Virus record (IMG/VR): IMGVR_UViG_3300028840_006907
Coordinates: 384,001-448,000 of that record
Origin: a virus
DNA: 64,000 bases
Strand: one strand, 5' to 3'
The translations under genes were made by a program, and so were the position numbers. The notes under the pieces were generated by a model. The model searched no databases. It had not been told where the DNA came from and was given only the letters and a program-made list of their open reading frames with translations. Of this stretch, positions 25,201-48,890 are shown in pieces (the stretch's first letter is position 1; each line of letters opens with the position of its first letter).

Positions 25201-25431
25201 CCTCTTGATGTTTCGGGAGGTGCAGGACGTGCCTATATCCAGAGTGATGGAAAAATAATCGTAAGTACTATTGATGGTCAGTTACCTGATACGAAAAATT
25301 ATGAAGTAGCATATTATGTGGAAGGGGAAACTGGTTCTGAAGATATTAATGTAGCAGCAGTTGAGTCTTTAAAAATTGGGACTCTAACAATTGCTTATGA
25401 TACACCACGAGAACAACTTCCTTCGTTATAA
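22258..25431 (+). CDS. large baseplate/tail structural protein (1057 aa)
   Basis: Long ORF, Thr/Val/Asp-rich beta-type composition; position in the baseplate cluster. Confidence 0.45.
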   Translation: MAIPAPEILLPTGGMDYATDIATQTLSGTTSADTQEIQINGSVHGVSYTAGETIWSWTGTLTLGSNVINIIAIEKVTSLPSPATTITITLIPPEDEVITVSSPTGVQTLRYQDKIEIKNVQNPEPNTIGYNYYVSTQSGGIDGVYAKINTDYITEYTSYEDKATLINTVTDTTGNIRVTVTTEQITREYYYSVFFDQERYTELVEAELLPAVSFNQNTPFFFVVTAIIYDPVLGQVTESANSIELQSSPVTITTGIRTLPARTQNDIILTFSQDLLLSNTGTDTKPGTVVRDMMDPISEEMARVYVIQDFLARSLSVSSLLDFDDADGDGESDAVEDSIPKKALQLALMLTDPDDVQAVIDAQFDKLASNADTTRRSATYAVGEVTFFVTEAPIRDMVVNEGAIVSTLGDLDSGIQAQSYRTLATKILDYETRERFYNSTTGRYEMSLDVEALNVGEEGNTDSYTVKVVSSGADSNFQVENPNPISFGEDIESNYNLATRIMLAFFADTGTEGGYAKIAASVSGVRRTRIEKAGDPLMIRDYDPIREKHVGGKVDVYIQGSRSRQVTDQIAFSFESIVSSQGAQSEEQFLVINAVAFQFKTTNPRVTSHTPIFEVSRVYNATRAQEYDISGYQIIGDGNTVDLDETKAQNAAIGLAATDVIKVDYKFRSSDTFVLQNQPVNDIVSIVGQLSGTLTSDNWDLVTLEDPLAEGRSTIAQDSVRIKFANNLPLTGFQTITDEVHVMILGKNEPLDFLGADPTSIVVKNLAKTVTYVLNVDYRIDPGTDTEATEIIMIESGSISNGEQVLINYVAIENFIITYTTNELLETVQDELDEYKHACADAIAKQAIENGVDFAFTVVPKSNVVDFNTLTSQITTSIANFISQLDIGVSLTQSDVDNQIRKVDDVDYVVLPFTRMVKSDGSQIVRDDIGQVQFEVYNDGVTRSYITSATVLSYNTIDKGGDENKFRGVFENTVALILQDDPLDVSGGAGRAYIQSDGKIIVSTIDGQLPDTKNYEVAYYVEGETGSEDINVAAVESLKIGTLTIAYDTPREQLPSL

Positions 25432-25443: not shown

Positions 25444-28400
25444 ATGGCTGAGAATTTAGGAACGGGTGTTTCTTTTGTTGATGAGAGTAATGGGTATAAT
25501 TATGATAAAGTTGTTTTCCAAAAACAAAAGCCACCTTTAGATACTGAATTAAATCTTGCTCAAGAGATACAAAATTTACTGGCAAAAAGACATATAAAAG
25601 GAATGCCTTCTGGTTGGTTAAATATAGAGGACTTTTATACAAGTTCATTATTAGAAAACCAATTTTATACCCAAGATCCGGACACAGCTATTCCAGAATA
25701 TGCTGTTGTGAATGGTATGGTTCTTTATGTGACTAACACTGGTACTTCTGAAACAAATTCAAATTTGATCACTCTTACTGATCCTCCTACCTCAGGTAAT
25801 CTTGTTAATGGTGTAATCCTAGAAGTATGGAGAGCTTTATTAGATACAGAAACCGATAATAACAGACCTGATTCAACAGTGGTTATAGATTCGTTAATGG
25901 CTATTGATGCCGTTACTGAAAATAGTGCCTGGACAGTCGGGGAAAATGGGCTTATTCTAGCTACTGAAAATGGTGGTCAAACATGGTCGGTTCAATTAAT
26001 TGATACAAAAAAGAAATTAAATGATGTTCATTTTATAAATACAACAGTAGGTTGGGTAGCCGGTGATAATGGTGCCATAGGTAGAACTTCATCTGGTGGT
26101 GTAACTTGGCTCGTATTACAGAGTGGCTATACTGAGAATTTCAATGGGATTCATGCAGCTACACATCTAATTGCTTGGGTTGCTGGTGATGGTGGTATTA
26201 TTCTTAAAACCGTCAATGGAGTTAACTGGTCGGCTCAAAATAGTAATGTTACAGCAAATCTTAATGATATTTATTTCTATGATAGTTTAGTAGGATGGGC
26301 AGTAGGAGATAATGGTACTATAATAAAAACCACTGATGGTGGATCCAATTGGATAACATTAACAAGTGGTACCACAGAAAATTTAAACGCTGTCTTTTTC
26401 TATGATTTAAATTTTGGTTTTGCTGTTGGTGATAATGGTACAATTTTAAGATCATCTGATGGTGGGCTGTCCTGGGTTGATCAATCTGGTAACATATACA
26501 CTGGTTCTGGTTATACAAGTCTTTCAGTGAATTACACTGATGTCACAATGGCCCCTTCTCTTGATATCCACGTGACCAATGAAGAGGTAACTTCCCAATT
26601 TACAGGTTCAAATAAAAATTGTACTGTAGTGAATGTTCCTATGACTAAAGGTGATGGGTTAGGTACAACAACGAATAGCCCTGCTGATGTCGATGGTGAG
26701 GGTAATTTAAGTACTGTTGTAACTGTAAATGGTACTTCTGTTCTTATAGATAGCATTGATGGAACTACAGGTCAAATTATTCTTAATCAGGCTCCTCAAG
26801 CATGTGATACAGTCCTTGTCTCTTATTGGCATAAAGTCAGCCCTGATATTTTTACGGGTAGGGCATGGATTACAGGGGCATCTGGAACAGTGTTGATGAG
26901 TCCAGACATTGGTGCTAATTGGAATCAACAAACTCCAAATACCAGCTATGATTTAAATGGTGTAAGTTTTGTTGATCAAAATAAGGGATGGGTAGCTGGA
27001 GCATTTTCAGTGATGCGACATACTGAAGATGGTGGTACTACATGGACTACTCAAATCAGTGATACCGTTTCTCGAAGGGTGCAACGGGTTTATAATGAAG
27101 GTAATGTAGATACTGTTATCTTTTTGGATGATGAAATGATCCATCCTGACACAAACATAGAAACGACAAAAAGAGTTCAAATTCAATATAAAATAAGAGT
27201 TATAGAAAATGTTGATCCCTTTTCATATCCGGATGCGGGGCTAGGCTCAGCGGGTATTGTGGCTCTAGGGCCAAATGCTACAGGATCATTTGCTTATCAG
27301 AACATGGGTTCTACGACAGGTGATTATGGTTTATGGCAAGCGAAATGCTCTAATACAGTAGATGGGTACGCATGGGCTATCCCAATGTTTTTTGTCAATA
27401 GAAGAAATAGCACTACTTTTAATGCTGCCAATAATACAAATGGTTCTAATGCTAAAGGTACTTCAAATATCCGACCTGATCTTTTGACCGGTGTTGATGT
27501 TGTAGATCAGGATATTCTTGATGTCAGGAGACAAATATTTATCCCTTCAGTGACTGAATTACTAAATAGTAGTTTTGATGCCCTTATGAATAATCAGTTA
27601 AAAACTCGATTTTTCAGACAAACCACTGGTGGTGATAGTTATTCTGTTGAGCCTTTACAATTGGATTATATCGCGCATGGTTCTGGTACTGAAATTGATG
27701 CTACATTGAGCGAGGCTGTTTCGGGACAAGTCACATCAATTACAACAACGAGTACAATATCTCAAAGTGTTCCTGCATCTACTTCTTTACCTTTTGATGT
27801 GACATTAAGTATTCCAGTAGGAACTCGGGGATTATTTCATCCTAATTCTATTTATTATACAGCTCGTTATGTAAGTAATAGTGCCACATATGATGGGAAA
27901 CCTATTCCGGGAGAATTTACTGGTATAGGTACAAATTCAGTAACGTTTAATTTTAGTGCAAAAGTAAACACTACAAATGAAGACACTAATTTAGTCAGTT
28001 ATGATATTGTGGCTCATTATGTAATATTTAGTCCTAAGTCATTGAGTAAAATTCCTTCTACTCCTCAGCTAGTAGAAAATACAGGAACGGTAAGTGAACC
28101 TTCTTTTTTCTATAGAGGAGTATTTACCAGTGAAACTTCTGGTAGAAAGATTGAAGAATGGGATTCAGGTATTTCAGGATATCCGAGTTATACTCTAGCC
28201 TATCCTGTTATAGAGGCAGGAAGTACTGCACAGGAAGCCCGAGCTTCTTCGATTGAGGTACATTTATATATAAGACTAACTAGTACTGAAATACAAAGTA
28301 TTAATCAGATTAAGATAAGTCAGGAAGTTTATCCTGATGTTGCAGATACGACTTCTTATTATAATCTTTACTGTGTCAGTGAAATAAATAATATCACTTC

Positions 28401-29520
28401 TGGTTTTAGTTTTAAGATAGATGATATTGTAATCACAGATGCCATTTATATTGACAGTGCTTCTGGTTTCCCCTTTATCGAAGGTAATGTCATTGAAATT
28501 GTGGGTATGGCATTGGCAGCTACCGGTAATTCTTATACCAGAAATGGTGCAAGTGTTAATTTTACTCAGGGTGAGAAAAAAATAAGCCCATTTGCTTATT
28601 CATCTCGTTTAAAAATAACTTCATTTCCTCCTGGGTCTATATCAAGTGTTCAGTTTACTAGCCTCGATGCTGATAGTGGTCAAATCTCCACAGCTTCTGG
28701 GGTATTTCTTGGTATAAGTACAACAGAAACTGTGAATAGTTTAACTGATCATTTTGCTTGGGTTGATGTTGGAGCGGGAGATGTTCTTACTCCAGTAACA
28801 GTGACAGGATTTAATACCACGACTTTAACAGTAAATTTCGCTACTCCTATATCACCAACTAGTGTCAAGATACAGGCTTTAATAAAACAGGCTAATTTAA
28901 TTTATGGCACTGATGCTGATGATGGATTACAGATAGCTTATAATTTTATTCCGAGTCAAACTCCTACAAATCTTCCTTCCAGTTTAATAGTAGGGATGGT
29001 TACTAATCCTACAAGTATTTATATATCAAATTTAGGTACTGGAGGCAGTCTTGTAGATAAGGAACCTTATAGTTTCCCTATTGATAGTATCCCTGTAAAT
29101 AATAGCTCTATTATTGATGATAATGAATTTTATAATTTAGATCTATTTAGATTTTCTAATTTCTCAGTAGATAGTGGGTTTGTTCAGATGCCTACTATTG
29201 TTCCTGGTTCTTTTGGGGAAGAGTTAACTTTTTCAAGTTTAACTACTGATGAGTTGTTACGTACTTTTTATAGTACATGTGATACAGAATTTGCCTTCAG
29301 AACAGAAGGTATAAAAATTGGAATACCGAGAAAGATATTTATCGCTACTATAGGAAGAGTAAAAGAGAACTCTACTCAATTATTACGAGGTGAATATGTT
29401 CTTATAATAATTTCCAGAGATAGCCTTACTGATTTAGAAAATTACACAGGTTGTGAAACAGGAAGTGGTAATGTTATCGGGATCTACCGATTACCGAATA
29501 AGCCATTGGTAAGAAAGTAA
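25444..29520 (+). CDS. giant tail fibre/receptor-binding protein with BNR/Asp-box beta-propeller domain
   Basis: At least seven Asp-box-like motifs (TENGGQTWSV, SSGGVTWLV, VNGVNWSAQ, TTDGGSNWIT, SSDGGLSWVD, DIGANWNQQ, TEDGGTTWTT) at roughly regular spacing; N-terminal region paralogous to the 35440..38493 product. Confidence 0.55.
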   Translation: MAENLGTGVSFVDESNGYNYDKVVFQKQKPPLDTELNLAQEIQNLLAKRHIKGMPSGWLNIEDFYTSSLLENQFYTQDPDTAIPEYAVVNGMVLYVTNTGTSETNSNLITLTDPPTSGNLVNGVILEVWRALLDTETDNNRPDSTVVIDSLMAIDAVTENSAWTVGENGLILATENGGQTWSVQLIDTKKKLNDVHFINTTVGWVAGDNGAIGRTSSGGVTWLVLQSGYTENFNGIHAATHLIAWVAGDGGIILKTVNGVNWSAQNSNVTANLNDIYFYDSLVGWAVGDNGTIIKTTDGGSNWITLTSGTTENLNAVFFYDLNFGFAVGDNGTILRSSDGGLSWVDQSGNIYTGSGYTSLSVNYTDVTMAPSLDIHVTNEEVTSQFTGSNKNCTVVNVPMTKGDGLGTTTNSPADVDGEGNLSTVVTVNGTSVLIDSIDGTTGQIILNQAPQACDTVLVSYWHKVSPDIFTGRAWITGASGTVLMSPDIGANWNQQTPNTSYDLNGVSFVDQNKGWVAGAFSVMRHTEDGGTTWTTQISDTVSRRVQRVYNEGNVDTVIFLDDEMIHPDTNIETTKRVQIQYKIRVIENVDPFSYPDAGLGSAGIVALGPNATGSFAYQNMGSTTGDYGLWQAKCSNTVDGYAWAIPMFFVNRRNSTTFNAANNTNGSNAKGTSNIRPDLLTGVDVVDQDILDVRRQIFIPSVTELLNSSFDALMNNQLKTRFFRQTTGGDSYSVEPLQLDYIAHGSGTEIDATLSEAVSGQVTSITTTSTISQSVPASTSLPFDVTLSIPVGTRGLFHPNSIYYTARYVSNSATYDGKPIPGEFTGIGTNSVTFNFSAKVNTTNEDTNLVSYDIVAHYVIFSPKSLSKIPSTPQLVENTGTVSEPSFFYRGVFTSETSGRKIEEWDSGISGYPSYTLAYPVIEAGSTAQEARASSIEVHLYIRLTSTEIQSINQIKISQEVYPDVADTTSYYNLYCVSEINNITSGFSFKIDDIVITDAIYIDSASGFPFIEGNVIEIVGMALAATGNSYTRNGASVNFTQGEKKISPFAYSSRLKITSFPPGSISSVQFTSLDADSGQISTASGVFLGISTTETVNSLTDHFAWVDVGAGDVLTPVTVTGFNTTTLTVNFATPISPTSVKIQALIKQANLIYGTDADDGLQIAYNFIPSQTPTNLPSSLIVGMVTNPTSIYISNLGTGGSLVDKEPYSFPIDSIPVNNSSIIDDNEFYNLDLFRFSNFSVDSGFVQMPTIVPGSFGEELTFSSLTTDELLRTFYSTCDTEFAFRTEGIKIGIPRKIFIATIGRVKENSTQLLRGEYVLIIISRDSLTDLENYTGCETGSGNVIGIYRLPNKPLVRK

Positions 29521-29532
29521 AGGATTTTAAAT

Positions 29533-29907
29533 ATGTTAACAACTACAGGATTTAATAATTTTGGATTTGAAGTATCAGATACTACGTTAAGTGTTCTTCC
29601 TGGTACTGCCAGAGTTGGAAGCAAATTATTAAAGTTTGATGGATCACGGGTTTTATTTGACAATATTACCAATTTTGGAGTGGAAACTTTTTCTTATCAG
29701 AATACTTTATTATATTTGCAGAATGTTGGTGACGTAGCTGATATGACTCAATCGAGATCTGATGTTACCAGTTCAGCATTATCAATAGATATCCCTGCTC
29801 TTCCTACTAATGCCAGTGGCCATTATGCTGATGAATATCCTTTGGGACTCTTTACCTTTTACAAAGATGCATCGGATGTAAGTTTGTATAAATATAACCA
29901 GATTTAA
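29533..29907 (+). CDS. hypothetical protein
   Basis: 124-aa ORF with AAGGATTTTAAATATG start context. Confidence 0.4.
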   Translation: MLTTTGFNNFGFEVSDTTLSVLPGTARVGSKLLKFDGSRVLFDNITNFGVETFSYQNTLLYLQNVGDVADMTQSRSDVTSSALSIDIPALPTNASGHYADEYPLGLFTFYKDASDVSLYKYNQI

Positions 29908-30299
29908 TATTTACTTAAAAGATCTTTTTTAAAATCAGGAATTTTCTGGGTTATAGTAGGCAATAATTCTTTTATTATTGTACTGTTTAATTGCTGTAAT
30001 TTCTCACAATATTCATTTTGAGCATCCAGAACAGTTTCAGTACATTCATCTTTTAGTGCCTTTTCTTTTTCATGATGTAATTGTTTTAATTCTTCTACAG
30101 CTTTATTGAAACTGTTTTCAAAACGTACTTTCATTTTAATTGCTAAACTTTCTAAGGATTTCTCTACAAAAGCATTAATAATTTCTTCGTAATCGTCATC
30201 CTCACCAAAACATTCCTTTATTTGATCACATACAAATTCTTTTTCATTTTTTATGACTTCATCAAGCCAACCATCATCAAAAGGTCTTGAGTATTCCAT
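29904..30299 (-). CDS. hypothetical acidic protein; only plausible minus-strand gene in the window
   Basis: 131-aa ORF filling an otherwise non-coding gap between + strand genes; SD-like AAGGAAA 8 nt upstream of its ATG on the minus strand. Confidence 0.45.
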   Translation of the reverse strand: MEYSRPFDDGWLDEVIKNEKEFVCDQIKECFGEDDDYEEIINAFVEKSLESLAIKMKVRFENSFNKAVEELKQLHHEKEKALKDECTETVLDAQNEYCEKLQQLNSTIIKELLPTITQKIPDFKKDLLSKY

Positions 30300-30487
30300 T
30301 TATATTTTCCTTTTTGTTAATATTATTTATATATTTTTTATAATATATTATTAGATTTACCATTGAGCAAGAGAAAAAACATTTTAAACCAATCAAATAC
30401 TTCAGTAAAAAGAATAATACCTCGCGAAGGCCATCTTTAATAAAAATTTATCAATTATAATTTTCTTTTAATACTTGAGATATATTT
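30300..30487. promoter_or_regulatory. AT-rich divergent intergenic region; candidate promoter(s) for the minus-strand gene and the 30488 gene
   Basis: 188-bp non-coding gap between divergently oriented starts; no specific promoter hexamers confidently identified. Confidence 0.25.
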
Positions 30488-33400
30488 ATGACTCAAATAT
30501 ATCTACCAGATTCAGAAGAACTCGGAAGACGCCGATTCCATGATGCTAAAAGTGATCGTCGTAATTTAAAAAATCTCGCTGAGCAACGTCTCCTTGAGAT
30601 GCGAACGTTATTGCCTTCTAATTACCCTAAAGATCCCTATAGTAGTAATCTTGCTTTATTCCATCGTTTTAATGCTCGGGAGCTGTCTCGAATAAGAATC
30701 TCTAATGATGATATATCAAGAGATTCTCAATACACTACGACAAGACCAGAGTATCTTCATCAGATTCTTGGTGAGAGGCTTTTTTTAGGCAATAGAATAG
30801 CTCCTCTTGGTTACAATGACCAGACATATAGAGAATTTTTAATAGCGATTAAAAACACTTATTTGCGGGGATCGCGGGTTGATGATATTGAAGCATTAGC
30901 CAGTCAGTTTACAGGTCAGGAAGTTATCATAAAAGAGTTGTATAGGGAATTAAGGAATCCTGATACATCTCTTGATGTCACTGACACAAATTACATGGTT
31001 GTTGAAGCATTGATACCTGGTCAATTACCTGCTGGTTATAATATAACTTCATTATTAAATGATTTAGATTTTTACATTAATTTAGTGCGGCCAGCGCATG
31101 TTTTATATGATACACGATTGATATGGACTGAGACCATTGATGTAAATAAGACAACAGATATCTATTTTGGTGATACCGGTGGTGGTTGTGTCCCTCTTTA
31201 TATTTTTGACCCTTTTGATGAAACAACGCTTATGGCGTTGCAGGTATTTGTCCTTCCTACTAGTGAAGGAGCAACAGGTCGAATAGATTCCATTCATCAT
31301 TGGGATTACCTTTTTTATTTGGAAGATGGCACCAGAGTATTAACTGAACCAGGTACTCAGGGAACACAGATTTTTGATGTAAATGGTCGTCAGATTAGTT
31401 TTAGCTCTCTTGAAATAGGTGATCATGTAAAAATAAATTATCAAATTATACCTGGTAATTTTCAATTCTGGTGGTATCCTGTAGGTTTGTTTCCTACATG
31501 GAGTTCACAGTTCTATAGAGATTATTACAGACTTCCCATATTCCAGGAATATGTAAAAAAACATATGGATTCTAAGGGGAGATTTCCTCTTCAGATAAGA
31601 ACAACTGAAACGACCGTTTGTGATCGTTGGGTAACAGATGCTCTTCAGCCTTATTATGAAGATTTAAGAACAAATTGTTCCAGTGGAAGTGTCCAGTCTA
31701 AAGATTATTCTTCTACTCTTAACATCAGAATGGGAAGTGGTCATTTTGCCAATCCTTATGGTACAAACCAGACAGCTCTGCCTGGAAATGAATTTGCTTT
31801 TTTCATGGAAAACACTCCCTTAACTGATGGATCGAGTAATCCAGCTACAGTTTCAGATGTTTCTGTGATGTTAGATGGAAGTTCTTTACCTCCTCAACCG
31901 GTAGTATATGTCGATGCTAGTTCCGGGAAAGTGCAATTAAGTGAGGACCATGAATATTGGGATAATACAGCATTAACTTTTCCTATTCCTGGGGAAGAGT
32001 TCCAATTTGATTATTCTTATCTTCAGGATAGTACTAATTATGATACATCATCTATATATGTCTATGGAGTGGGTAGCTGGCAGATGCCAAATGCTCCTCT
32101 TGTAGAAGGTGATAGTACGGGTATTCTTGCGGATACAAGTGATGTAACATTATCTGTAGATGGTACAGTAATAAGTAATGCAATAACAGATGTAAATGCT
32201 TTATTAGGGCATGTAACAGTTAATCAACTTTCGAGCTTTTGGAATAGTTCTGAATTAGGACGTTTACCTCAGGTAGGAGATGAGTTTTTATTTAGTTTCT
32301 TTTATGGTAAGAAATATCAATATTCTTGTCTTTTTGATGAATTGGGTAGAACTTTTGATACTTATATAGGTCCGAATTCAACTTATGGTATTGTTTTCGA
32401 CGGAGAATTAAACCAAAATCCTGAAACAGCTCCTATAACACCAGATGCAACTGCAGTAATAGGTTATCGTTATCGGGGTTATTTATTACATCATAGTTCG
32501 GTATTAAATTCTCCTGATACGTTACAATTAAATACTTTTCAGAAACCTGCTACTCGTGCTTCTATAATAAATCAGGCTAATACTATAAATCATTTTAATA
32601 TTTTCTTTTCACCTGAATTTCTTTATGATACTACGGCATATGATTATTTAGATGATTCTTATCTTGAAAATGGATTAGACCCGATTCTGAAATTAAATGT
32701 AGGTACTCCTCCTTTTCAAAAGACATGGTCATATCATCCAGGATTGGTTAACAGTAGAAAATTACAAGATATAAGAACAAATCATCGTTTACTACTTTAT
32801 TCTGATTTACTACTGAAAGAGTTCCAAGAAGGTAATGAAGACATACCTTTAAGTTCTATATGTGATTCAGAACGGGTAGAATTTAGAATACGTATTGATG
32901 GTGATGATATACCGCCTTTAGAAGAATGTCCTCCGTGGATTTTATTTGATTCTGTTCAGGTCGATGATGTTGAAGTTACAGTCCCGGGATTTTATCAGGG
33001 TGTACCAAATGTCAGAGTACCTGGAATGAATTTACGCGAAAGTTTTATTCTTAGGGAATTGGAATCTACTGGTGTTGGCGAATATACTTATACCTTTAAT
33101 ACTGATAGTAGTGCTACTCCTGAATATTACTTACCTGCAACATTTCCATATACGTATAATGGTGATACAATTAGCTTTCCTGCTTTACCTGTTATAGATA
33201 TTAATGGTAATCCGGCAACGATTAGTGATATAGAAGTTAGGGTAAATGGAGTTTTATGGACTGTATTAAGTCTTGATCCAGTGACAGGTTTTGTACAGGT
33301 AAGTCCGTATCCGGCTGGTCCGGCTATTCAAGTAGAGACAAAATATTACATAAACAATGTTGTGACAATGCCTATGGCAAATTGGGATTGGTCTAGGATT

Positions 33401-33802
33401 CTTGATGACGATGATGTCTTTCCAGGTTATTGTCAGGATGGTGTAGGTATTACGCTAGGACTCAATTTTGATGAATTCTTTACGTTTCTTGATGATGATA
33501 GTGATGGTATTAAGATAGTGTTTTTCAATAAGGATACTTTAAATGTTGAGGAGCATATCTTTTCAGGACCAGTTTTTGAGTATTACAATATAGCTGATGA
33601 CGAATTAGGTTCACCTGATAACTTTCCAAATGCTTTAGTAAGATTAGTAAATCCGATACACTTAACTAATCCTCTGAGTTATTCTGGTGATTATAGCTTT
33701 CTGAATGATAAAGTTGTGAGATTTAGGAAGAAAACATTTAAAGAGCTTCTTCCTAGTAAGACATTTCGAACTATAGAGTTGATGGAAATGATGCCTCTAT
33801 AA
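30488..33802 (+). CDS. large structural protein (1104 aa), function unknown
   Basis: Uninterrupted 3.3-kb ORF following an intergenic gap. Confidence 0.5.
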   Translation: MTQIYLPDSEELGRRRFHDAKSDRRNLKNLAEQRLLEMRTLLPSNYPKDPYSSNLALFHRFNARELSRIRISNDDISRDSQYTTTRPEYLHQILGERLFLGNRIAPLGYNDQTYREFLIAIKNTYLRGSRVDDIEALASQFTGQEVIIKELYRELRNPDTSLDVTDTNYMVVEALIPGQLPAGYNITSLLNDLDFYINLVRPAHVLYDTRLIWTETIDVNKTTDIYFGDTGGGCVPLYIFDPFDETTLMALQVFVLPTSEGATGRIDSIHHWDYLFYLEDGTRVLTEPGTQGTQIFDVNGRQISFSSLEIGDHVKINYQIIPGNFQFWWYPVGLFPTWSSQFYRDYYRLPIFQEYVKKHMDSKGRFPLQIRTTETTVCDRWVTDALQPYYEDLRTNCSSGSVQSKDYSSTLNIRMGSGHFANPYGTNQTALPGNEFAFFMENTPLTDGSSNPATVSDVSVMLDGSSLPPQPVVYVDASSGKVQLSEDHEYWDNTALTFPIPGEEFQFDYSYLQDSTNYDTSSIYVYGVGSWQMPNAPLVEGDSTGILADTSDVTLSVDGTVISNAITDVNALLGHVTVNQLSSFWNSSELGRLPQVGDEFLFSFFYGKKYQYSCLFDELGRTFDTYIGPNSTYGIVFDGELNQNPETAPITPDATAVIGYRYRGYLLHHSSVLNSPDTLQLNTFQKPATRASIINQANTINHFNIFFSPEFLYDTTAYDYLDDSYLENGLDPILKLNVGTPPFQKTWSYHPGLVNSRKLQDIRTNHRLLLYSDLLLKEFQEGNEDIPLSSICDSERVEFRIRIDGDDIPPLEECPPWILFDSVQVDDVEVTVPGFYQGVPNVRVPGMNLRESFILRELESTGVGEYTYTFNTDSSATPEYYLPATFPYTYNGDTISFPALPVIDINGNPATISDIEVRVNGVLWTVLSLDPVTGFVQVSPYPAGPAIQVETKYYINNVVTMPMANWDWSRILDDDDVFPGYCQDGVGITLGLNFDEFFTFLDDDSDGIKIVFFNKDTLNVEEHIFSGPVFEYYNIADDELGSPDNFPNALVRLVNPIHLTNPLSYSGDYSFLNDKVVRFRKKTFKELLPSKTFRTIELMEMMPL

Positions 33803-33862
33803 TATCTGTAATAAACTATTAATAATTTAAGTAAGAGAGAATAGTACTATAAGGAGCTACAA

Positions 33863-34447
33863 ATGTTTTATAAAGAAAATCTGCATAAAACCGGTGATAC
33901 ATTTTCAGGGGGTTTTAAGTTAAGATATCTGGAACAATCACCTTCATTAAAAGGCGAGTTCTGGATGATACTTAAAGATCGTTCTGGACAAATAGTTGGT
34001 AAAAGACACGGAAATAATATTATTGTAAATTCCGCTTCAGTTTTAATAGCACGTTTATTAAAGGACAATAGTGAGCCTAGTGGTGGAATTACTTATTTGG
34101 CAGTAGGTACAGGTGGGGTTGGGTGGAATTTACAGAATCCTCCTCAGCCTACAACTACACAGACAACTCTTGAGAATGAAATAGCCAGAAAAGCTTTTAC
34201 AACTGAGGATGTAACTTTTGTAGATCCAGAAACCGGGGATCCAACTATTGTTCCAACGAACGTTCTTGATTTCACCGCAACATTTGCAGAAACAGAAGGT
34301 GTAGGTCCTTTAGTGGAAATGGGTTTATTTGGTGGAGATGCAACAGATTTATTGGATAGTGGTACTGAAGTCAATTACAGAACTTTTCCTGTTCTAAATA
34401 AAACAAATTCAATGACTTTGACCATAATATTTAGGATAACAGCTTAA
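33863..34447 (+). CDS. hypothetical protein
   Basis: 194-aa ORF, SD AAGGAG upstream. Confidence 0.4.
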   Translation: MFYKENLHKTGDTFSGGFKLRYLEQSPSLKGEFWMILKDRSGQIVGKRHGNNIIVNSASVLIARLLKDNSEPSGGITYLAVGTGGVGWNLQNPPQPTTTQTTLENEIARKAFTTEDVTFVDPETGDPTIVPTNVLDFTATFAETEGVGPLVEMGLFGGDATDLLDSGTEVNYRTFPVLNKTNSMTLTIIFRITA

Positions 34448-34505
34448 GTGTTCTTTGTAATATATGTTATAGCAAAGATTTAAGCAAGTAAAGGGATTTA
34501 ATTCA

Positions 34506-35447
34506 ATGTTTGAGAATCTTGGAGTATGTAAAGGACCTGGGACAATACTGGGTCAATTACAGATGGGTACAGAATCAATAAATATCTCTAAGATAGGCAG
34601 ACATTTTTATGCGTTGTTGAATAACCGGGTTATAATGACAGCAAAATCAAAGCAGGTTTTACAAAATAGAGTTGTGCCAGTTCTTTCTCATATTGTAGAA
34701 AACATCTGTAAAACATCTCAATTGGATTCAGCTCGATGGAGGCCGGTAGATAAGAGATACACTCAATTAGTAATAGATACGATTGAAAATATAAAGAAAA
34801 ATTTAAAACCGGTAGAGATCTATGTATTGAAAGCAAAACCAGATGAGACCCAAGATAATAGATCGATTCTATCAGAAAATAAACAAGGTATAATAGAAAA
34901 ATTAAATGATTATCGGTTAAATCTTAAAAAGTTTGAAGAGACGAAAAATAATTTACAAGAAGCTTCTGAGGTGCTTTTAAAGGTTAATCTTGACAGGAAA
35001 TTATGGGGTAGAAAAAATGTCATGGATATCATAAATGAGGCAAAGACTGGAATGGCTGAATTGTCTCAAGATTATGAAACTGTTGACAGTTGTTTGGAGC
35101 GATCTGATGAACAGGTTAATAAAGTACAAATTATAATAAGTAAAAAGATTGCTTCTAGAATTTTAAAAAGTACTCTTGGGAGTATCATTGAAAATTTTTC
35201 TATTTTAAAATCATTTTTATCAGAACTAGCACAAGTGTTATATAGGTTTTATGGTATTGATAACGTTTTTAAAAATCAAGTTGGTTATCCAGCTACATGG
35301 TTTTTAGATAGTGCGGTTTTTACAGACTTTCTTTTTGAATATGATAATTTAATCGATCAACTTATTAAATTCACTGAATTAGAATCAAATACGATAGAAC
35401 CATTACTATTGTGGAAAATAAAGATGACGGGAGTATCAAATGTCTGA
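34506..35447 (+). CDS. hypothetical protein, partly coiled-coil
   Basis: 313-aa ORF. Confidence 0.4.
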   Translation: MFENLGVCKGPGTILGQLQMGTESINISKIGRHFYALLNNRVIMTAKSKQVLQNRVVPVLSHIVENICKTSQLDSARWRPVDKRYTQLVIDTIENIKKNLKPVEIYVLKAKPDETQDNRSILSENKQGIIEKLNDYRLNLKKFEETKNNLQEASEVLLKVNLDRKLWGRKNVMDIINEAKTGMAELSQDYETVDSCLERSDEQVNKVQIIISKKIASRILKSTLGSIIENFSILKSFLSELAQVLYRFYGIDNVFKNQVGYPATWFLDSAVFTDFLFEYDNLIDQLIKFTELESNTIEPLLLWKIKMTGVSNV

Positions 35448-38400
35448 TTATTTAGGCCCAAACCAGACCAGAGTATTGGATTACGACAATAGAAGTTTTG
35501 AAAAAGTAGTTTACCAAAGGAAAAAACCTCCTCTATCAAGTGAAGTTAATCTTACAGGTGATATTTCATCTGAACATGCCAAAGATTTAGCTCAGTTTTT
35601 ACTTCCTAGTGGATGGGGAATTGTTGGTGAATTAAGAGATGATGTCACTGAAAGTAGCGCTGATGCTGGAGATGTGATTTGTTCTTCTACTTATACAGCA
35701 AATTCATTCAAATTACTATCTCTGGATAAAGGTGTAGAAGCACAGACATTAATAGCATATGTTAATGGCTGGAAGTTACTCGTTCAAGGATCAAATTCAT
35801 TAGATGAGAATAATATAATTACTCTTTCTGCTCCTCCTTCAACAGGTTATAGAGTAGATTTTGTATTTCTTGAAGTTTGGAGAAAACTTATTACTATATC
35901 TGATGTAGTGTATAAATATGGCAATATCCTTTATGGTGGTACGAATCCTTCTAATGATCTTGTTGATCCTGCAATTAATATTGAAACTTCTCTTAGAGTT
36001 CAAATACAGTATCGTATTAGAATAGTTGATGATATTGATATCGAATCTTATCCCGATGGTTTTGACCCTAATAAAGTCTTTGTACAAGGACCTCTTTCTT
36101 CTCCATTAAGTACATGTAGCCAAGCTTATTTTTCCCAGGTTTCCGGTGATCCTGGCCTCTGGAGAGCAGGAGTAGGTGATGCAGGAGCACAAACAGATCT
36201 ACAAACTGTTGATGGTCATACATATGCTATTCCTATGTTTGCTATTCACCGTCGAAATACCGGTACTTATAATGTGGAAACCCGTTCTAATGGTGCTGGA
36301 AAAAGTTTAGCTGATTATTTACTGGGTCAACCTTCGGATCGTCCCGATAACAGATATAACAATTGGGTAGTAACAGATGACATTTTGGATATGCGTCACA
36401 GAATTACTCCGGTCCAGAACATGAAAGAGATATGTGAGTCAGCTTTTGAAAAACTTACTCGTGGAAAAATCCGTCAAAAAATGGCAAAACTGACTTTAGG
36501 AGAAGATCATTTTGGAAAGATCCTTACTCAGGTTGATGCAGTAAGTAATGTGGATCTTGCAGGTTCGACTTTGATTGCCCAAGGTGATGGTTTAAGAAGA
36601 ATGTTTTCTAATGCTCAGATATCTCAGTCAGATACGCTTGCTGTAAAGACAGTAAATGATAAAACGAGCGGTACTCCAGGTTCACCGTGGGCCACTTCAG
36701 ATCAGGTACAAATCACAATTCCTACATATCCAACTGGTTCTTCTATAACAAGTATCGATGAAATTTATACTTCAAGTGGTGCTCTTACTTTATCTGTGGA
36801 TTATACTGTTTCTGGGACTGGTACAAATACAGTAACGATAACTATACTTGTCACATCTTCATTGATAGGGACAAGTGTACCTATCACTATCGATTATACG
36901 GTTATGCTTGCAGAAGGCCCAAATGGAATGACAGCTCTCCCAGAGAATTTCCTGGAAGTAAGAAATGAAGGTGTAGGAACTCAAATAATTGCTCCTATTG
37001 ATAATGATATCAGAGTAAGAAATGCTAATCCAGTAGTAGCAACTGATGGTACACATTTTCACATGTTGTCAAATCAGGGTGCCAATTCCACAGAACCTTA
37101 TGATTTCGGGCATCAAATGATTTATCATGCTTTAGGTAATGGTACTCAGTATATAACAGTTGATAGAACTGCATTTGGTTATGATATATTAGGTGTAGCA
37201 AGTGTCTATGTGAATAGTAATTATCGAACACCTCTTATTACCAGGACTTCCACTCAATATATTATCAATATGCAAAGTCCTGCAGTATCGTTAAATACTG
37301 ATATTGAAGTGAAACTTTATATAGGATCCAAGTTTTTTAATACAAATAAACAATCCAGAGCTGTAATCGATACTTATGAAATGAGTGAGCTTTCTCCATT
37401 ACAGTCACCGAATGGTATTTTAACGACATTTAATATAGACAGTACAAATAAGGCTATTCAAGCAGTAGCTAGTGGTGCTGTTCTGGATGGGGCTGGTATC
37501 GCTTATGTTGATGGAACTCAAGTAACTCTTACTAGTACTAACAGTAGATATCCTACCGATTCAACAAAATCTCGAATTGAAATAGAATTTAGCTCTGCTC
37601 CTGCAGGTAGTACTACAATAGAAGTACCCTTATTGATGAAAAGTGCTATCACATCATCTGAAGGTTATGATTTCTTTTATCATGCTGTTCCATATCAAGG
37701 GTTGCTAGATACAACTGCTTTTGGTGTTATAGAAGAAACAGGACCGGCCATGGTGACTACTGCTGGTTCAGGTGGTATTACTGATACTACGTTTACGGAT
37801 GGTGTAGCGATTTTTACTGCAGATAGTACTTCTGTAACAGGTGTAAATACAAATTGGCTAGCCGGAGTGAATCCTGGTTACGTTATCAGTGCTGATTCTA
37901 CTCCATCGAAACAGTTTGAAGTTTCACAGGTTTATAGTAACACGAGTCTAACTATCACAGGGAAACCAGATTTCACTTCTATCGGTGGTGAGTCCTACAC
38001 TATTACAGGAAAAGATATTCCTTCTTTTTCTCAATCTAATATTATCGATAGATTGCCAACATATGATAATACTCATGATAGTATGGGAAGAAGTGAAAAT
38101 ATTTCTAATGCGGTTTCAGATGGATACCCTGTTCTTGAGTCAAGGATAATGACCAAAGTACAGAATATTGTAGATGCTCCTCCAAATTCAGTGATATATG
38201 GTGTAAATACTGCTGATCGTGGGAGATCTACTATTAGTATTCCGAATGCTTCTTTGGGTTACGGTAATCTCGGTTTAAGATTTGAGAAATTGGATGCTAC
38301 AGGTCAATACCAGAAGACTTATCAATCCTATATTTTAAATAAAGATAATGATGGTAGGCTTTATTTAATGGTTGTAGCTAGTGAAACAGACCAATCAAGT

Positions 38401-38493
38401 CATTCAAGGTTTTTTAATGAACGTTCTAATTTGGATACAGTTGATATTTTTGAAATGCCTGGACGTCCTATAACTAAACGGGGTACTAATTAA
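35440..38493 (+). CDS. giant tail fibre-like protein, paralogue of the 25444..29520 product in its N-terminal domain
   Basis: Shared blocks with the 25444 product: 'KVVYQRKKPPL' vs 'KVVFQKQKPPL', 'VFLEVWRKLI' vs 'ILEVWRALL', 'RVQIQYRIRIVDDIDIESYPDG' vs 'RVQIQYKIRVIENVDPFSYPDAG', 'YAIPMFAIHRRN' vs 'WAIPMFFVNRRN'. Confidence 0.55.
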   Translation: MSDYLGPNQTRVLDYDNRSFEKVVYQRKKPPLSSEVNLTGDISSEHAKDLAQFLLPSGWGIVGELRDDVTESSADAGDVICSSTYTANSFKLLSLDKGVEAQTLIAYVNGWKLLVQGSNSLDENNIITLSAPPSTGYRVDFVFLEVWRKLITISDVVYKYGNILYGGTNPSNDLVDPAINIETSLRVQIQYRIRIVDDIDIESYPDGFDPNKVFVQGPLSSPLSTCSQAYFSQVSGDPGLWRAGVGDAGAQTDLQTVDGHTYAIPMFAIHRRNTGTYNVETRSNGAGKSLADYLLGQPSDRPDNRYNNWVVTDDILDMRHRITPVQNMKEICESAFEKLTRGKIRQKMAKLTLGEDHFGKILTQVDAVSNVDLAGSTLIAQGDGLRRMFSNAQISQSDTLAVKTVNDKTSGTPGSPWATSDQVQITIPTYPTGSSITSIDEIYTSSGALTLSVDYTVSGTGTNTVTITILVTSSLIGTSVPITIDYTVMLAEGPNGMTALPENFLEVRNEGVGTQIIAPIDNDIRVRNANPVVATDGTHFHMLSNQGANSTEPYDFGHQMIYHALGNGTQYITVDRTAFGYDILGVASVYVNSNYRTPLITRTSTQYIINMQSPAVSLNTDIEVKLYIGSKFFNTNKQSRAVIDTYEMSELSPLQSPNGILTTFNIDSTNKAIQAVASGAVLDGAGIAYVDGTQVTLTSTNSRYPTDSTKSRIEIEFSSAPAGSTTIEVPLLMKSAITSSEGYDFFYHAVPYQGLLDTTAFGVIEETGPAMVTTAGSGGITDTTFTDGVAIFTADSTSVTGVNTNWLAGVNPGYVISADSTPSKQFEVSQVYSNTSLTITGKPDFTSIGGESYTITGKDIPSFSQSNIIDRLPTYDNTHDSMGRSENISNAVSDGYPVLESRIMTKVQNIVDAPPNSVIYGVNTADRGRSTISIPNASLGYGNLGLRFEKLDATGQYQKTYQSYILNKDNDGRLYLMVVASETDQSSHSRFFNERSNLDTVDIFEMPGRPITKRGTN

Positions 38494-39464
38494 TGTTAAC
38501 AAGTTTATCTGATTATATGAGAATGATTATTTCCGCTACAGGTGATATTGATATCATTCGTGTTGTTTTCTTTTTTAAAGCTGATAGTATTGAAACTCTT
38601 CAAACTAAAAGAAAAGAACCTCTTTCAGATGATAGTGGAAATTTCCAGTGGCAAGCTTGTTGGATCCATTTCTCTCGGGAAGATAAAAATGGGAATTTAA
38701 AATATTATATATACAGGCTAGGGCTTCTTCCTAATGGAAAGAAATCAGAAAGTCATAATATTTATGATTCTGATCAGAACATGAATGTGAGTGAAATTAT
38801 TCAAGCTGAGAAAAAAGATATAGAGCCAGCAAAAGATATTTTACCAGCAGACCTTGAAAAAAGCCCAGCTTATAAAGCCCTCTTTGGTAAACCTACAAGT
38901 GAAGGAATATTTAATTTTAGATTTAAAAAACCTGAAGCTGATTTTATAAATTCACAGGAGAATAAAAGTTATACTCGTAAAAAATTCGAAGAAGATTATG
39001 AAAATAATGTTGATGAAGGTTCTGGGAAATATTTTTATACTTTGTTCTCTGAAAGGGGTAATAAAAAATTAAGTCCTTTTGGAGAAACTCGTCAATTTAA
39101 AAAAGAGGAAAAACCTGTGGAAGAATCACCAGAAAAAACTGCTGTCAGATTGGCTATGAAGATTGCAAAAGAGATCAAGCCTGAAACCGGTGGTATGGAT
39201 ATAATGAAACGATTGGTTGAGAAGTTGCGTACTACAAAGAAAAAGAAGGATAAAAAAGATTATTATACCAATGGTTGGGGTATAATTAGAAAGTGGCAAA
39301 AAGAGCAACAACATCAATCGACAAAAAATAAACCAAATAGTGATGGATTTGATATCATGCAAGAGGTTGTGAAGCATCCTGAACCTATCAGAAAAAAATC
39401 ATTAATGGAACCTCTGGAAAAAGATCCCCCCAAAAAACCCGGTACAAAACGGAAATTTTCTTAA
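38493..39464 (+). CDS. hypothetical Lys-rich protein
   Basis: 323-aa ORF with basic C-terminal half (KKKKDKKDYY...). Confidence 0.4.
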   Translation: MLTSLSDYMRMIISATGDIDIIRVVFFFKADSIETLQTKRKEPLSDDSGNFQWQACWIHFSREDKNGNLKYYIYRLGLLPNGKKSESHNIYDSDQNMNVSEIIQAEKKDIEPAKDILPADLEKSPAYKALFGKPTSEGIFNFRFKKPEADFINSQENKSYTRKKFEEDYENNVDEGSGKYFYTLFSERGNKKLSPFGETRQFKKEEKPVEESPEKTAVRLAMKIAKEIKPETGGMDIMKRLVEKLRTTKKKKDKKDYYTNGWGIIRKWQKEQQHQSTKNKPNSDGFDIMQEVVKHPEPIRKKSLMEPLEKDPPKKPGTKRKFS

Positions 39465-48128: not shown

Positions 48129-48890
48129 ATGCTACCTACTAATGATATTGCTGTCTTTGCCCAAAAAAATGATGCAGAATTTCGTGCTCTAGTCCGAAAA
48201 CAGTGCGAGTATCTTGATTATCCTGGTTCACCTGATGATGTTGTCCAAGAGCTTTATGTGAAGTTCTTAACAAAAAAGAAAATCATTGAAGCTTATGATC
48301 CCAGTTATAATGTACAAATATCTTCTTACCTTTTTAAAATTATCCGTAATTTTATAATCACCAGAGTGAAAAGTCACGATGGTCGATTTCGTCGGTGCCG
48401 TGTTTTAACCCCTTCTCCTACTGATGATACTAACGAGTTCGATCTTATTCCCGCTTATTATGATGTTTCAGATGATTTCTACGACAATCAATATTTTAAC
48501 AATAATTCTTTTATGGAAGAATTCAGCGATTTTGAGCGTCAGTTTTCAAAATCACCTCAGAACATAAAATTTAAGTTACGAAAGAGACAACATAAAAATA
48601 CTTCTCTCAATTTTTTAAAAATATTGGAACGTCTTCAAAAGCGTGGTAAAATCGGTGAAGAATTTAATGAAATCAAGGATTTAATCACAGAGATAGAAGA
48701 AAACGGGTGTACTCTATTGGACCTTTTCCGACTTCTGTATAAGGGATACAACAATAAAATGATCGCTCGGATTTATGGAGTATCAACAACTACAATAAGT
48801 GCTATGAAAAGCAAATTAGCAAAAGCCATGATTAAATACGGTATAAAGTATGATCGAGCTACGGTGTCCAAAGTGTCAATCCAAAGTTGA
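48129..48890 (+). CDS. sigma-70 family (ECF-like) sigma factor
   Basis: Region 2-like 'DVVQELYVKFLTK...SSYLFKIIRNFIITRVKS', region 4 HTH-like 'KMIARIYGVSTTTISAMKSKLAKAM'. Confidence 0.5.
   Translation: MLPTNDIAVFAQKNDAEFRALVRKQCEYLDYPGSPDDVVQELYVKFLTKKKIIEAYDPSYNVQISSYLFKIIRNFIITRVKSHDGRFRRCRVLTPSPTDDTNEFDLIPAYYDVSDDFYDNQYFNNNSFMEEFSDFERQFSKSPQNIKFKLRKRQHKNTSLNFLKILERLQKRGKIGEEFNEIKDLITEIEENGCTLLDLFRLLYKGYNNKMIARIYGVSTTTISAMKSKLAKAMIKYGIKYDRATVSKVSIQS

What the first reader, a model, noticed from the sequence alone, without database searches (positions are those of the whole stretch)
25444..38493. Two giant fibre-like proteins share an N-terminal anchor domain; one has a BNR/Asp-box beta-propeller inserted
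The 25444 (1358 aa) and 35440 (1017 aa) products share several N-terminal blocks (quoted in the feature evidence) but then diverge. Only the first contains about seven Asp-box repeats (SxDxGxTW-like), characteristic of sialidase-type or Ycf48-like beta-propellers that bind or process glycans. This pattern, a shared virion-attachment module with swapped distal modules, is how phages diversify receptor-binding proteins, and it suggests dual receptor specificity with one arm targeting a surface polysaccharide.
Basis: seen in the sequence. Interest (0 to 1): 0.5.

Follow-up and report, generated by a model that had tools for sequence, protein, structure and literature searches.

The report
Paralogous huge-phage baseplate proteins, one with propeller
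Two large neighbouring genes in a huge phage's baseplate module are ancient full-length copies of one uncharacterised structural protein, and one copy carries a seven-bladed Ycf48-type propeller spliced into a surface loop, which makes this a modest new variant of known phage host-recognition hardware, not a pair of tail fibres with swapped tips.

Summary
ORF A (25444-29520, 1358 aa) and ORF B (35440-38493, 1017 aa) share N-terminal blocks (BLASTP E 4e-15 and 2e-28). Only A has a Ycf48/BNR seven-bladed propeller (Pfam E 7e-27; fold match to Ycf48, TM 0.70-0.73).

The interpretation needs correcting.
- The propeller (aa 139-548) is an insertion inside the shared N-domain. With it deleted, A aligns colinearly to B 1-467 (E 6e-47).
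- Profile comparison extends the homology to A 565-1202 / B 174-780 (E 1e-61). So these are full-length paralogues, not a shared anchor with swapped distal modules.
- Both are conserved end to end, down to about 31% identity, and co-occur in related huge phages.
- Neither model looks fibrous.

The genes lie in a baseplate cluster: Baseplate_J, A, a gpI/gp7-like scaffold candidate, an arm-segment protein (PF25691), then B. This order resembles Staphylococcus phage K/812, where the tripod protein occupies B's position. B's best PDB fold hit is a phage 812 baseplate chain, probably the tripod, but the match is weak, and sequence membership in DUF4815 is not met.

Orthologues gain and lose accessory domains at fixed hotspots. 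My best reading is peripheral baseplate proteins that carry plug-in binding domains. The propeller's ligand is unknown.

The parts
25444..29520 (+). ORF A, 1358 aa: baseplate-cluster structural protein and paralogue of B. It immediately follows the Baseplate_J gene.
   Evidence: The J-then-A adjacency is conserved in a relative at 32% identity.
25444..25857 (+). A aa 1-138: first half of the shared N-domain (strand 20-25, long helix 33-51, beta strands, the 'VVFQKxKPPLDxELN' and 'LEVWRALL' motifs).
   Evidence: BLASTP E 4e-15. hhalign E 2e-33. Secondary structure.
25858..27087 (+). A aa 139-548: inserted Ycf48/BNR-type seven-bladed beta-propeller, including its own internal insert.
   Evidence: Pfam PF14870 E 7e-27. 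PDB Ycf48 by sequence, E 1e-14 and E 2e-33 with the family profile. Foldseek to Ycf48, TMt 0.70-0.73. Deleting this segment gives a colinear alignment to B, E 6e-47.
26488..26838 (+). A aa 349-465: about 117-aa beta-rich domain nested inside the propeller between blades 5 and 6. It is the least conserved part of the insert.
   Evidence: DSSP of the model. Blade parsing. Conservation and gap profile.
27088..29049 (+). A aa 549-1202: second half of the shared N-domain ('IETTKRVQIQYKIRV', 'YAWAIPMFFVNRRN', 'DILDVRR') plus a beta-rich body homologous to B 157-780.
   Evidence: BLASTP E 2e-28. hhalign E 1.1e-61.
29050..29520 (+). A aa 1203-1358: C-terminal region ending in the 'YRLPNKP' tail motif, which weakly matches B's 'FEMPGRP' tail.
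   Evidence: hhalign E 1.8e-4 over 37 columns. Smith-Waterman z 4.3. A similar motif appears in the consensus of distant family members.
35440..38493 (+). ORF B, 1017 aa: paralogue of A without the propeller. Its start overlaps the end of the upstream 313-aa ORF by 8 nt, and its stop codon shares its last base with the ATG of the downstream 323-aa ORF.
35440..36639 (+). B aa 1-400: uninterrupted N-domain. It defines a large Pfam-less superfamily.
   Evidence: phmmer against 1.84 billion representatives: 969 clusters at E<=1e-3, protein lengths roughly 140-2200 aa among the 150 listed, mostly 800-2200. No Pfam hit in 27 sampled members.
37792..38025 (+). B aa 785-862: small accessory domain resembling the N-terminus of tail-fibre proteins. 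It is absent from several B orthologues.
   Evidence: phrog_1980/1591 'tail fiber protein', E 1e-6. F2-pyocin side fibre residues 5-73, E 1.3e-4. Missing in P0070/80/81/84/87/77/88/90.
22258..25431 (+). Context: Baseplate_J (T4 gp6 / P2 gpJ-like) wedge protein, 1057 aa.
   Evidence: Pfam PF04865 E 1.5e-18. Similar to Tunturi_5 gp241 'baseplate wedge subunit'.
30488..33802 (+). Context: 1104-aa protein whose N-terminus resembles the P2 gpI-like baseplate proteins that follow gpJ in other phages. It is a candidate gp7-like / arm-scaffold protein.
   Evidence: BLASTP to phage G gp189 (E 1.6e-6) and Tunturi_5 gp240 (E 6e-8). gp189 matches phrog_1160 'baseplate protein' and is described as P2 gpI-like with a C-terminal appendage (PMC12484599).
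33863..34447 (+). Context: 194-aa arm-segment-like (T4 gp8-like) baseplate protein.
   Evidence: Pfam PF25691 at 30.6 bits against a cut-off of 27. The same family matches the phage K/812 arm-segment protein at E 3e-69. 41% identical to phage G gp190.
34506..35447 (+). Context: 313-aa ORF immediately upstream of B and overlapping its start. Conserved next to B in a distant relative. Function unknown.
38493..39464 (+). Context: 323-aa ORF starting at the last base of B's stop codon. It is the last gene before the replication module (helicase at 39573).

Best explanation
A and B are ancient, full-length paralogues of a large, so far unnamed family of baseplate-associated structural proteins of huge contractile-tailed phages.

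Shown:
- They share one scaffold from the N-terminus (short strand, long helix, beta-sandwich with the KPPL-x-x-ELN, LEVWR, RVQIQYRIR and DILDxR motifs) through a beta-rich body.
- A carries a seven-bladed Ycf48-type BNR propeller, itself interrupted by a ~117-aa beta domain. The propeller sits in a loop of the N-domain that is only about 5 residues long in B.
- B carries a small tail-fibre-N-like domain at 785-862.
- Orthologues and distant relatives gain or lose such accessory domains at a few fixed hotspots: about 300-aa inserts at B~455, some of them BNR-like, and a ConA-like lectin domain in phage G gp211.
- Both genes sit in the baseplate cluster, and both are kept in related phages down to about 31% identity.

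Inferred:
- The conserved scaffold docks the proteins onto the baseplate periphery. A would sit next to the gp6-like wedge protein. B would sit on the gp7-like scaffold / gp8-like arm, in the way tripod proteins sit on the arms of Staphylococcus phage 812.
- The plug-in domains contact host envelope polymers. Binding would contribute to adsorption and to the baseplate rearrangement that triggers contraction.
- The two paralogues probably occupy two distinct, non-interchangeable sites. They are unlikely to be alternative host-range cassettes.

Rough confidence by step: paralogy plus insertion 0.95; baseplate or tail structural role 0.8; tripod-like peripheral position 0.45; propeller as a host-surface ligand binder 0.4, with the ligand class unknown.
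For: Paralogy and insertion:
- BLASTP.
- hhalign: E 1e-61 and E 2e-33.
- A with aa 139-548 deleted aligns colinearly to B 1-467, E 6e-47.

Propeller:
- Pfam, PDB sequence searches, AF2 model, Foldseek, Asp-box count.

Baseplate context:
- TMP-like and hub/gp5-like genes upstream.
- Baseplate_J directly upstream of A.
- gpI-like scaffold candidate and the PF25691 arm-segment protein upstream of B.
- The order matches phage K/812: wedge, arm scaffold, arm segment, tripod, receptor-binding proteins, helicase (PMC13433997).

Tripod likeness:
- The best Foldseek PDB hits for B are phage 812 post-contraction baseplate chains of 908 and 821 residues (E 1.3e-5 and 3.8e-4). That length fits the 1152-aa tripod without its unresolved anchor and hook domains.
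- The N-terminal motif aligns with DUF4815 at the same residue numbers (P 0.0078-0.03).

Plug-in behaviour.

Conservation and co-occurrence:
- The two hit lists share about 26 contig lengths.
- Synteny is kept in a relative at 32% identity.
- Conservation is even along the length.

Homologues elsewhere: phage G gp211 and Tunturi_5 gp247, the latter annotated 'tail fiber protein'.

Precedent: a Ycf48-like segment lies under genes annotated baseplate wedge initiator or subunit in T4-like cyanophages.
Against: - There is no direct evidence that either protein is in the virion. No proteomic or structural data were found for any homologue.
- I could not confirm that chain 9eui_Q is the tripod. I inferred it from chain length.
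- In phage G the B-like gene lies about 15 kb from the J/I/gp8-like genes.
- Ycf48 itself binds a protein, not a glycan, so the ligand class is open.
- The oligomeric state was not predicted.
Confidence: 0.6

Rival explanations
1. A and B are tail fibres or receptor-binding proteins that share an N-terminal virion-attachment module and carry swapped distal receptor-binding modules. This would give dual receptor specificity, with A targeting a surface polysaccharide.
For: - The N-domain superfamily is attached to proteins of roughly 800-2200 aa, so the content downstream of the N-domain does vary at superfamily level.
- Tunturi_5 annotates its homologue as 'tail fiber protein'.
- B 785-862 resembles tail-fibre N-termini.
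- Lectin-like and BNR domains occur in family members.
Against: - A and B are homologous through A1202/B780, and weakly at the C-terminal tail.
- The propeller lies inside the N-domain, not distal to it.
- The models are compact multi-domain beta structures, not fibres.
- There is no hypervariable tip, and both paralogues and the propeller are stably retained down to about 31% identity.
Confidence: 0.12
2. A, and possibly B, is an integral inner-wedge protein. It would be a gp7/gpI/TssG-like partner of the gp6-like Baseplate_J protein, or purely architectural baseplate mass needed for a very large tail. The propeller would then serve as an intra-virion docking or stabilising domain with no role in host recognition.
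For: - A directly follows Baseplate_J, and this adjacency is conserved in a distant relative.
- The N-terminus has a long helix followed by a beta domain, as wedge proteins do.
- Cyanophage genes annotated as gp7-like also contain a Ycf48-like segment.
- End-to-end conservation is typical of core structural parts.
- Ycf48 is a protein-binding assembly factor.
Against: - A separate gpI-like candidate exists: 30488-33802, similar to phage G gp189 and Tunturi gp240.
- There is no sequence or fold match to gp7, gpI or TssG.
- Phage G and Tunturi_5 each have a single homologue, and it is not next to their J gene.
- Accessory domains of lectin or BNR type, gained and lost at hotspots, fit an exposed position better than a buried one.
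Confidence: 0.2
3. The propeller is an enzyme (sialidase, GH74-like or another depolymerase) that degrades capsule or exopolysaccharide.
For: - BNR/Asp-box propellers occur in sialidases and in GH74 xyloglucanases.
- GH74 enzymes appear among the fold hits.
Against: - The closest relatives by sequence and by fold are non-catalytic Ycf48 proteins.
- There is a single seven-bladed propeller. In the GH74 hits the match covers only part of a roughly 700-aa two-propeller enzyme (TMt about 0.25). From general knowledge, sialidases have six blades.
- There is no FRIP or RIP motif.
Confidence: 0.05

Closest known systems
Tripod protein of Staphylococcus phage 812/K (gp119 / ORF65, Pfam DUF4815, PDB 9EUF/9EUI)
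   Same: - Large (about 1000-1150 aa) multi-domain, beta-rich baseplate protein.
[quoted passage not shown]
- Carries carbohydrate-binding-type accessory domains (PMC13433997).
- Best Foldseek PDB hit for B.
- Its N-terminal motif (LF..GR.LQ.AELNEMQ) aligns with VVFQ..KPPL..ELN at the same residue numbers.
   Different: - No significant sequence membership: no PF16075 hit and hhalign probability at most 5%.
- The huge phage has two diverged paralogues, whereas 812 uses one gene at two sites.
- A lies next to the J gene, not after the arm segment.
Ycf48 / HCF136 photosystem II assembly factor (PF14870; PDB 2XBG, 5OJ5, 5OJR)
   Same: Seven-bladed BNR/Asp-box propeller. The sequence match is significant (E 7e-27 Pfam; E 2e-33 profile against PDB) and so is the fold match (TMt 0.70-0.73).
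   Different: - Here it is a domain inserted into a phage structural protein, and it carries an extra ~117-aa beta domain between blades 5 and 6.
- There is no photosynthetic context.
- The ligand is unknown.
Genes annotated 'baseplate wedge initiator' or 'baseplate wedge subunit' (gp7-like) in T4-like cyanophages (S-CAM9, S-8S53/55/56)
   Same: A baseplate protein of a contractile-tailed phage that contains a Ycf48-like propeller segment, about 34% identical to A 186-353.
   Different: Only the propeller matches. The host protein is unrelated to the A/B scaffold. I did not examine the domain placement in those proteins.
Bacillus phage G gp211 and Tunturiibacter phage Tunturi_5 gp247
   Same: True homologues of the A/B N-domain and part of the body (tblastn E 2e-21 and 4e-21), found in cultivated huge phages. 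gp211 carries a ConA-like lectin (Laminin_G_3) domain at 482-594, near the family's variable region.
   Different: Each phage has a single copy, there is no propeller, and the genomic position relative to the J/I genes differs. They are annotated only as 'gp211' and 'tail fiber protein'. I found no functional data.

Membership tests
Ycf48/HCF136-type BNR beta-propeller (PF14870), for A aa 139-548 | Sequence match above the curated Pfam threshold | tested here: met
   94.9 bits against a cut-off of 27, E 7e-27. The family profile against PDB Ycf48 gives E 2e-33.
Ycf48/HCF136-type BNR beta-propeller (PF14870), for A aa 139-548 | Seven-bladed propeller fold with one Asp-box per blade | tested here: met
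   The AF2 model has 7 four-stranded blades. Foldseek to Ycf48 gives TMt 0.70-0.73, probability 1.0. There are 6 Asp-box-like motifs plus 1 degenerate copy.
Ycf48/HCF136-type BNR beta-propeller (PF14870), for A aa 139-548 | Ycf48 function: binding of the D1 peptide through a conserved arginine patch | not tested
   I did not map the Arg-patch residues, and there is no photosynthetic context.
Sialidase (GH33) propeller | Six blades, FRIP motif and arginine triad | tested here: not met
   Seven blades. No RIP or FRIP motif. Sialidases are absent from the top 50 fold hits.
DUF4815 / phage 812 tripod protein | Sequence membership (PF16075 or a significant profile-profile match) | tested here: not met
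   No PF16075 hit at E<=0.1. hhalign gives E 0.19, 0.031 and 0.0078 with probability at most 5%, and only the N-terminal motif aligns.
DUF4815 / phage 812 tripod protein | Fold similarity to the solved tripod chain | tested here: inconclusive
DUF4815 / phage 812 tripod protein | [quoted passage not shown] | tested here: met
   Met for B, with one 313-aa ORF in between. Not met for A, which follows Baseplate_J.
DUF4815 / phage 812 tripod protein | Trimer docked on loops of the arm-scaffold protein | not testable with these tools
Phage tail fibre / modular receptor-binding protein | Fibrous architecture (coiled coil, beta-helix or repeated shaft) | tested here: not met
Phage tail fibre / modular receptor-binding protein | Conserved N-terminal anchor with an exchangeable, hypervariable distal part | tested here: not met
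   Homology between A and B runs through most of their length. Conservation is even, and the N- and C-termini are both conserved. Variation occurs by internal insertion and deletion.
gp7 / P2 gpI / TssG-like wedge protein | Sequence or fold match to gp7, gpI or TssG | tested here: not met
gp7 / P2 gpI / TssG-like wedge protein | Gene immediately downstream of the Baseplate_J gene | tested here: met
   Met for A only, and the adjacency is conserved in a relative at 32% identity.

The most novel reading that the evidence does not exclude
The A/B family (about 970 clusters at 50% identity, no Pfam or PHROG family match to its N-domain, no solved relative) may be a distinct, previously undescribed class of baseplate protein specific to huge phages. 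In this reading it is an 'insertion platform': conserved N- and C-terminal parts form the docking core, and surface loops accept whole domains (propellers, lectins, fibre-like modules). After duplication, the two paralogues would occupy separate sites in an enlarged baseplate. The Ycf48-type propeller would recognise a protein or peptide ligand, as Ycf48 does, and not a glycan.
Probability: 0.25. Interest if true: 0.55.

Novelty: new variant of a known kind. Interest (0 to 1): 0.36.

Why it matters
Huge-phage genomes are mostly unannotated. Their very large baseplates have barely been characterised, and I found no functional or structural data for any homologue of A or B.

This work does three things:
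- It assigns a likely baseplate role to a widespread, Pfam-less family: about 970 clusters at 50% identity, including phage G gp211.
- It shows that the family diversifies by inserting whole domains at fixed loops, not by swapping tips.
- It gives defined boundaries (A aa 139-548) for expressing a phage-borne Ycf48-type propeller and looking for its ligand.

This is useful for annotation and for choosing targets in phage G or related isolates. It does not overturn current ideas about how phages recognise their hosts.

Tried and rejected
- PHROGs gave no family for A. For B it gave only a small tail-fibre-like domain.
- PDB sequence searches with the A and B family profiles gave nothing for the scaffold.
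- hhalign of the B family against the phage K tripod sequence, against a DUF4815 alignment, and of a merged A+B N-domain profile never reached significance. The global mode gave nothing.
- Pfam on seven B orthologues that carry large inserts gave nothing except one sub-threshold BNR repeat.
- Pfam on 27 distant superfamily members gave no hits.
- I looked for gp211 in two phage G papers and in supplements. It is not mentioned, and no supplements are held.
- Two literature searches on Ycf48 in phage baseplates and on DUF4815 returned nothing relevant.
- I tested whether the small reverse-strand ORF near A is related to the reverse-strand genes that precede the B-like genes of phage G and Tunturi_5. 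There is no similarity.
- I first misread a 1461-aa gene near the B-like gene of a distant relative as the A orthologue. BLAST showed it is the orthologue of the scaffold candidate (30488-33802). The true A orthologue, coincidentally also 1461 aa, lies about 28 kb upstream, next to the J gene.
- One context look-up for a 2205-aa superfamily member returned only a 10-kb contig that told me nothing.
Full report
**What is there**

The window is low-GC (about 34%). Nearly all its genes are on the + strand. It reads as the tail/baseplate module of a huge phage followed by a replication module:
- a tape-measure-like protein at 2727-6035
- a hub/gp5-like protein at 9941-11872
- then helicase, DnaB-like helicase, primase and family-A DNA polymerase from 39573 onward

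The same genes occur on public metagenomic contigs of 388,651 and 469,617 bp. The two ORFs of the finding exist as described: A = 25444..29520 (1358 aa) and B = 35440..38493 (1017 aa). Both have Shine-Dalgarno-like sequences.

**Checking the observation**

BLASTP aligns A1-133 with B1-151 (32% identity, E 4e-15) and A563-835 with B172-467 (30%, E 2e-28). Shuffle z-scores are 27.6 and 42.7. No other ORF tested (24 ORFs between 189 and 42000) shares this domain.

The region of A between the two blocks is a Ycf48/BNR propeller:
- Pfam PF14870, E 7e-27
- PDB Ycf48 sequences, E 1e-14 with A alone and 2e-33 with the family profile
- six Asp-box-like motifs plus one degenerate copy, against 0.3 expected by chance
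- an AlphaFold2 model (aa 1-1200, pLDDT 87.8) with seven four-stranded blades
- best PDB fold matches to Ycf48, E 2e-12, target TM 0.70-0.73

**Corrections to the anatomy**

1. The propeller splits the shared domain instead of following it. Deleting A aa 139-548 produces one colinear alignment to B 1-467 (E 6e-47). The insertion sits in a loop that is only about five residues long in B.
2. The propeller carries its own nested insert, a ~117-aa beta domain between blades 5 and 6 (aa 349-465).
3. The proteins do not simply diverge after the N-terminus. Family profiles align A565-1202 with B174-780 at E 1.1e-61, including shared motifs near the end (Y.Y.P.Q and LGTGGS / TAGSG). The extreme C-terminal tails match weakly (E 1.8e-4).
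4. B has a small domain at 785-862 that resembles tail-fibre N-termini (phrog_1980/1591; F2-pyocin side fibre, E 1.3e-4).

A and B are therefore full-length paralogues that differ by inserted domains.

**Evolutionary behaviour**

Both proteins have many full-length homologues down to about 31% identity. All listed A homologues carry PF14870.

Conservation is fairly even along both proteins. The N-domain and the C-terminal end are the best conserved, and there is no hypervariable tip.

Within the B family, variation is by internal insertion and deletion at hotspots:
- about 300-aa inserts at B~455 (P0058/59/63/85)
- inserts at the same site that resemble A's propeller (P0077/88/90; BLAST E 5e-7 to 3e-9)
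- loss of B~400-495 (P0086 and others)
- loss of B785-862 (P0070/80/81/84/87)

Phage G gp211 has a ConA-like lectin domain at 482-594.

The uninterrupted N-domain (B 1-400) finds 969 clusters at 50% identity among 1.84 billion representatives. The listed proteins are mostly 800-2200 aa. None of 27 sampled members has any Pfam domain. Their consensus keeps both the N-terminal motifs and a C-terminal R..GRPL-type tail.

**Genomic context**

- A directly follows a Baseplate_J (gp6/gpJ-like) protein at 22258-25431 (Pfam E 1.5e-18).
- Downstream of A lie a 124-aa ORF and a reverse-strand 131-aa ORF.
- Next is a 1104-aa protein (30488-33802). Its N-terminus matches phage G gp189 (E 1.6e-6) and Tunturi_5 gp240 (E 6e-8). 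gp189 hits phrog_1160 'baseplate protein' and is described as P2 gpI-like with a C-terminal appendage (PMC12484599).
- Next is a 194-aa protein in PF25691. That family is modelled on the phage K/812 arm-segment (T4 gp8-like) protein (E 3e-69).
- Then come a 313-aa ORF, B, a 323-aa ORF and the helicase.

Phage K has the order Baseplate_J, arm scaffold (1019 aa), arm segment (173 aa), tripod (1152 aa, DUF4815), receptor-binding proteins, helicase (PMC13433997). B therefore occupies roughly the tripod position.

In a relative at about 32% identity, the blocks [J-like, A-like] and [scaffold-like, 326 aa, arm segment, 308 aa, B-like, 387 aa, helicase] are both conserved. They are separated there by about 28 kb of other genes.

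**Fold of the scaffold**

The B model is confident (pLDDT 90.5, pTM 0.88). It is almost entirely beta, with one long N-terminal helix. It is a stack of globular domains, not a fibre.

Foldseek against the PDB ranks two chains of the phage 812 post-contraction baseplate first (908 and 821 residues; E 1.3e-5 and 3.8e-4). Probability is only 0.57 and TM about 0.11. The chain length fits the 1152-aa tripod without its anchor and hook domains, which were unresolved after contraction. I could not verify the chain identity directly.

Profile comparison with a DUF4815 alignment is not significant: E 0.19 and 0.031, and 0.0078 with a merged A+B profile. The only aligned segment is the N-terminal motif, which sits at the same residue numbers (about 16-63) in both families.

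I take this as a lead for distant relatedness or analogy, not as membership.

**Mechanism**

Shown:
- paralogy
- propeller insertion
- baseplate-cluster location
- stable co-retention of both genes
- hotspot insertion of accessory domains

Inferred:
- The conserved N/C scaffold docks to the baseplate: A near the gp6-like wedge, B on the gp7-like/gp8-like arm.
- The inserted domains face outward and bind host envelope components.
- This contributes to adsorption and to triggering contraction, as proposed for the tripod proteins of phage 812.
- The two paralogues fill two different sites.

The ligand of the propeller is open. Its nearest relatives (Ycf48) bind protein, and there is no sign of sialidase catalytic motifs. 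Genes annotated as gp7-like wedge proteins in T4-like cyanophages also contain a Ycf48-like segment, so this kind of domain recruitment into baseplates has a precedent.

**Rivals**

- An inner-wedge or purely architectural role remains possible for A because of its conserved adjacency to J. However, a separate gpI-like gene exists, and the single-copy homologues in phage G and Tunturi_5 are not next to J.
- A depolymerase role for the propeller is unlikely.

**Verdict**

The architecture and the evolutionary mode were misread.

This is a new variant of a known kind: a peripheral baseplate protein decorated with binding domains, belonging to a large unannotated huge-phage family.

Interest is moderate to low (0.36). 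The result is useful for annotation and as a defined target for structural work on phage G-like baseplates, but it is not surprising in principle.

Noticed in passing
window 44090-47878: The family-A DNA polymerase (1262 aa) has a LAGLIDADG_3 domain between two DNA_pol_A segments. The orthologue in a distant relative (L005 19097-21697) is only 866 aa and has no LAGLIDADG hit on record. This suggests an intein or homing-endonuclease insertion in the polymerase gene.
   Followed up: no
B-family orthologues P0077, P0088, P0090 (insert at about aa 440-725 of those proteins): Some B orthologues carry a BNR/propeller-like segment resembling A's propeller (BLAST E 5e-7 to 3e-9), but at a different insertion site (equivalent to B~455). 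The same proteins lack the B785-862 domain. This points to independent or relocated propeller acquisition within the family.
   Followed up: partly
L001 14947-18483 (Bacillus phage G gp211): The single phage G homologue of A/B carries a ConA-like lectin domain (Laminin_G_3, E 2.8e-5, just below the Pfam cut-off) at aa 482-594, near the family's variable region. Its N-terminal aa 12-51 hit phrog_10588 'tail protein'.
   Followed up: partly
window 12492-17834 and 22258-25431: The 1780-aa ORF shares an ~85-aa segment with the Baseplate_J protein (aa 573-655 vs 585-672, 32% identity, E 1e-7). It also has the same tail-fibre-N-like PHROG domain (phrog_1980, aa 136-200) that occurs in B at 793-860.
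   Followed up: no
window 6037-6804 and 6809-7651: Two adjacent ORFs (255 and 280 aa) just after the tape-measure-like gene are weak paralogues of each other (24% identity, E 1.6e-10). The second resembles Tunturi_5 gp255 'virion structural protein'.
   Followed up: no
L007 14391-24386 (contig Ga0378408_0000015, relative at about 32% identity): In this relative, the J/A block and the scaffold/B block are separated by about 28 kb. The first 10 kb of that stretch was read. It encodes a collagen-like protein, PKD-domain proteins, a TylF-type methyltransferase, two glycosyltransferases and a radical-SAM protein, none of which lie between A and B in the window.
   Followed up: no
window 29904-30299 (- strand): This is the only sizeable reverse-strand ORF (131 aa, charged, probably helical) within the otherwise + strand baseplate cluster. 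It is also called as a gene on the public contig. It is unrelated to the reverse-strand genes upstream of the B-like genes in phage G and Tunturi_5.
   Followed up: partly
window 48129-48890: A 253-aa ORF after the polymerase has a weak precomputed Sigma70_r2 hit on record, which may indicate a phage-encoded sigma factor.
   Followed up: no
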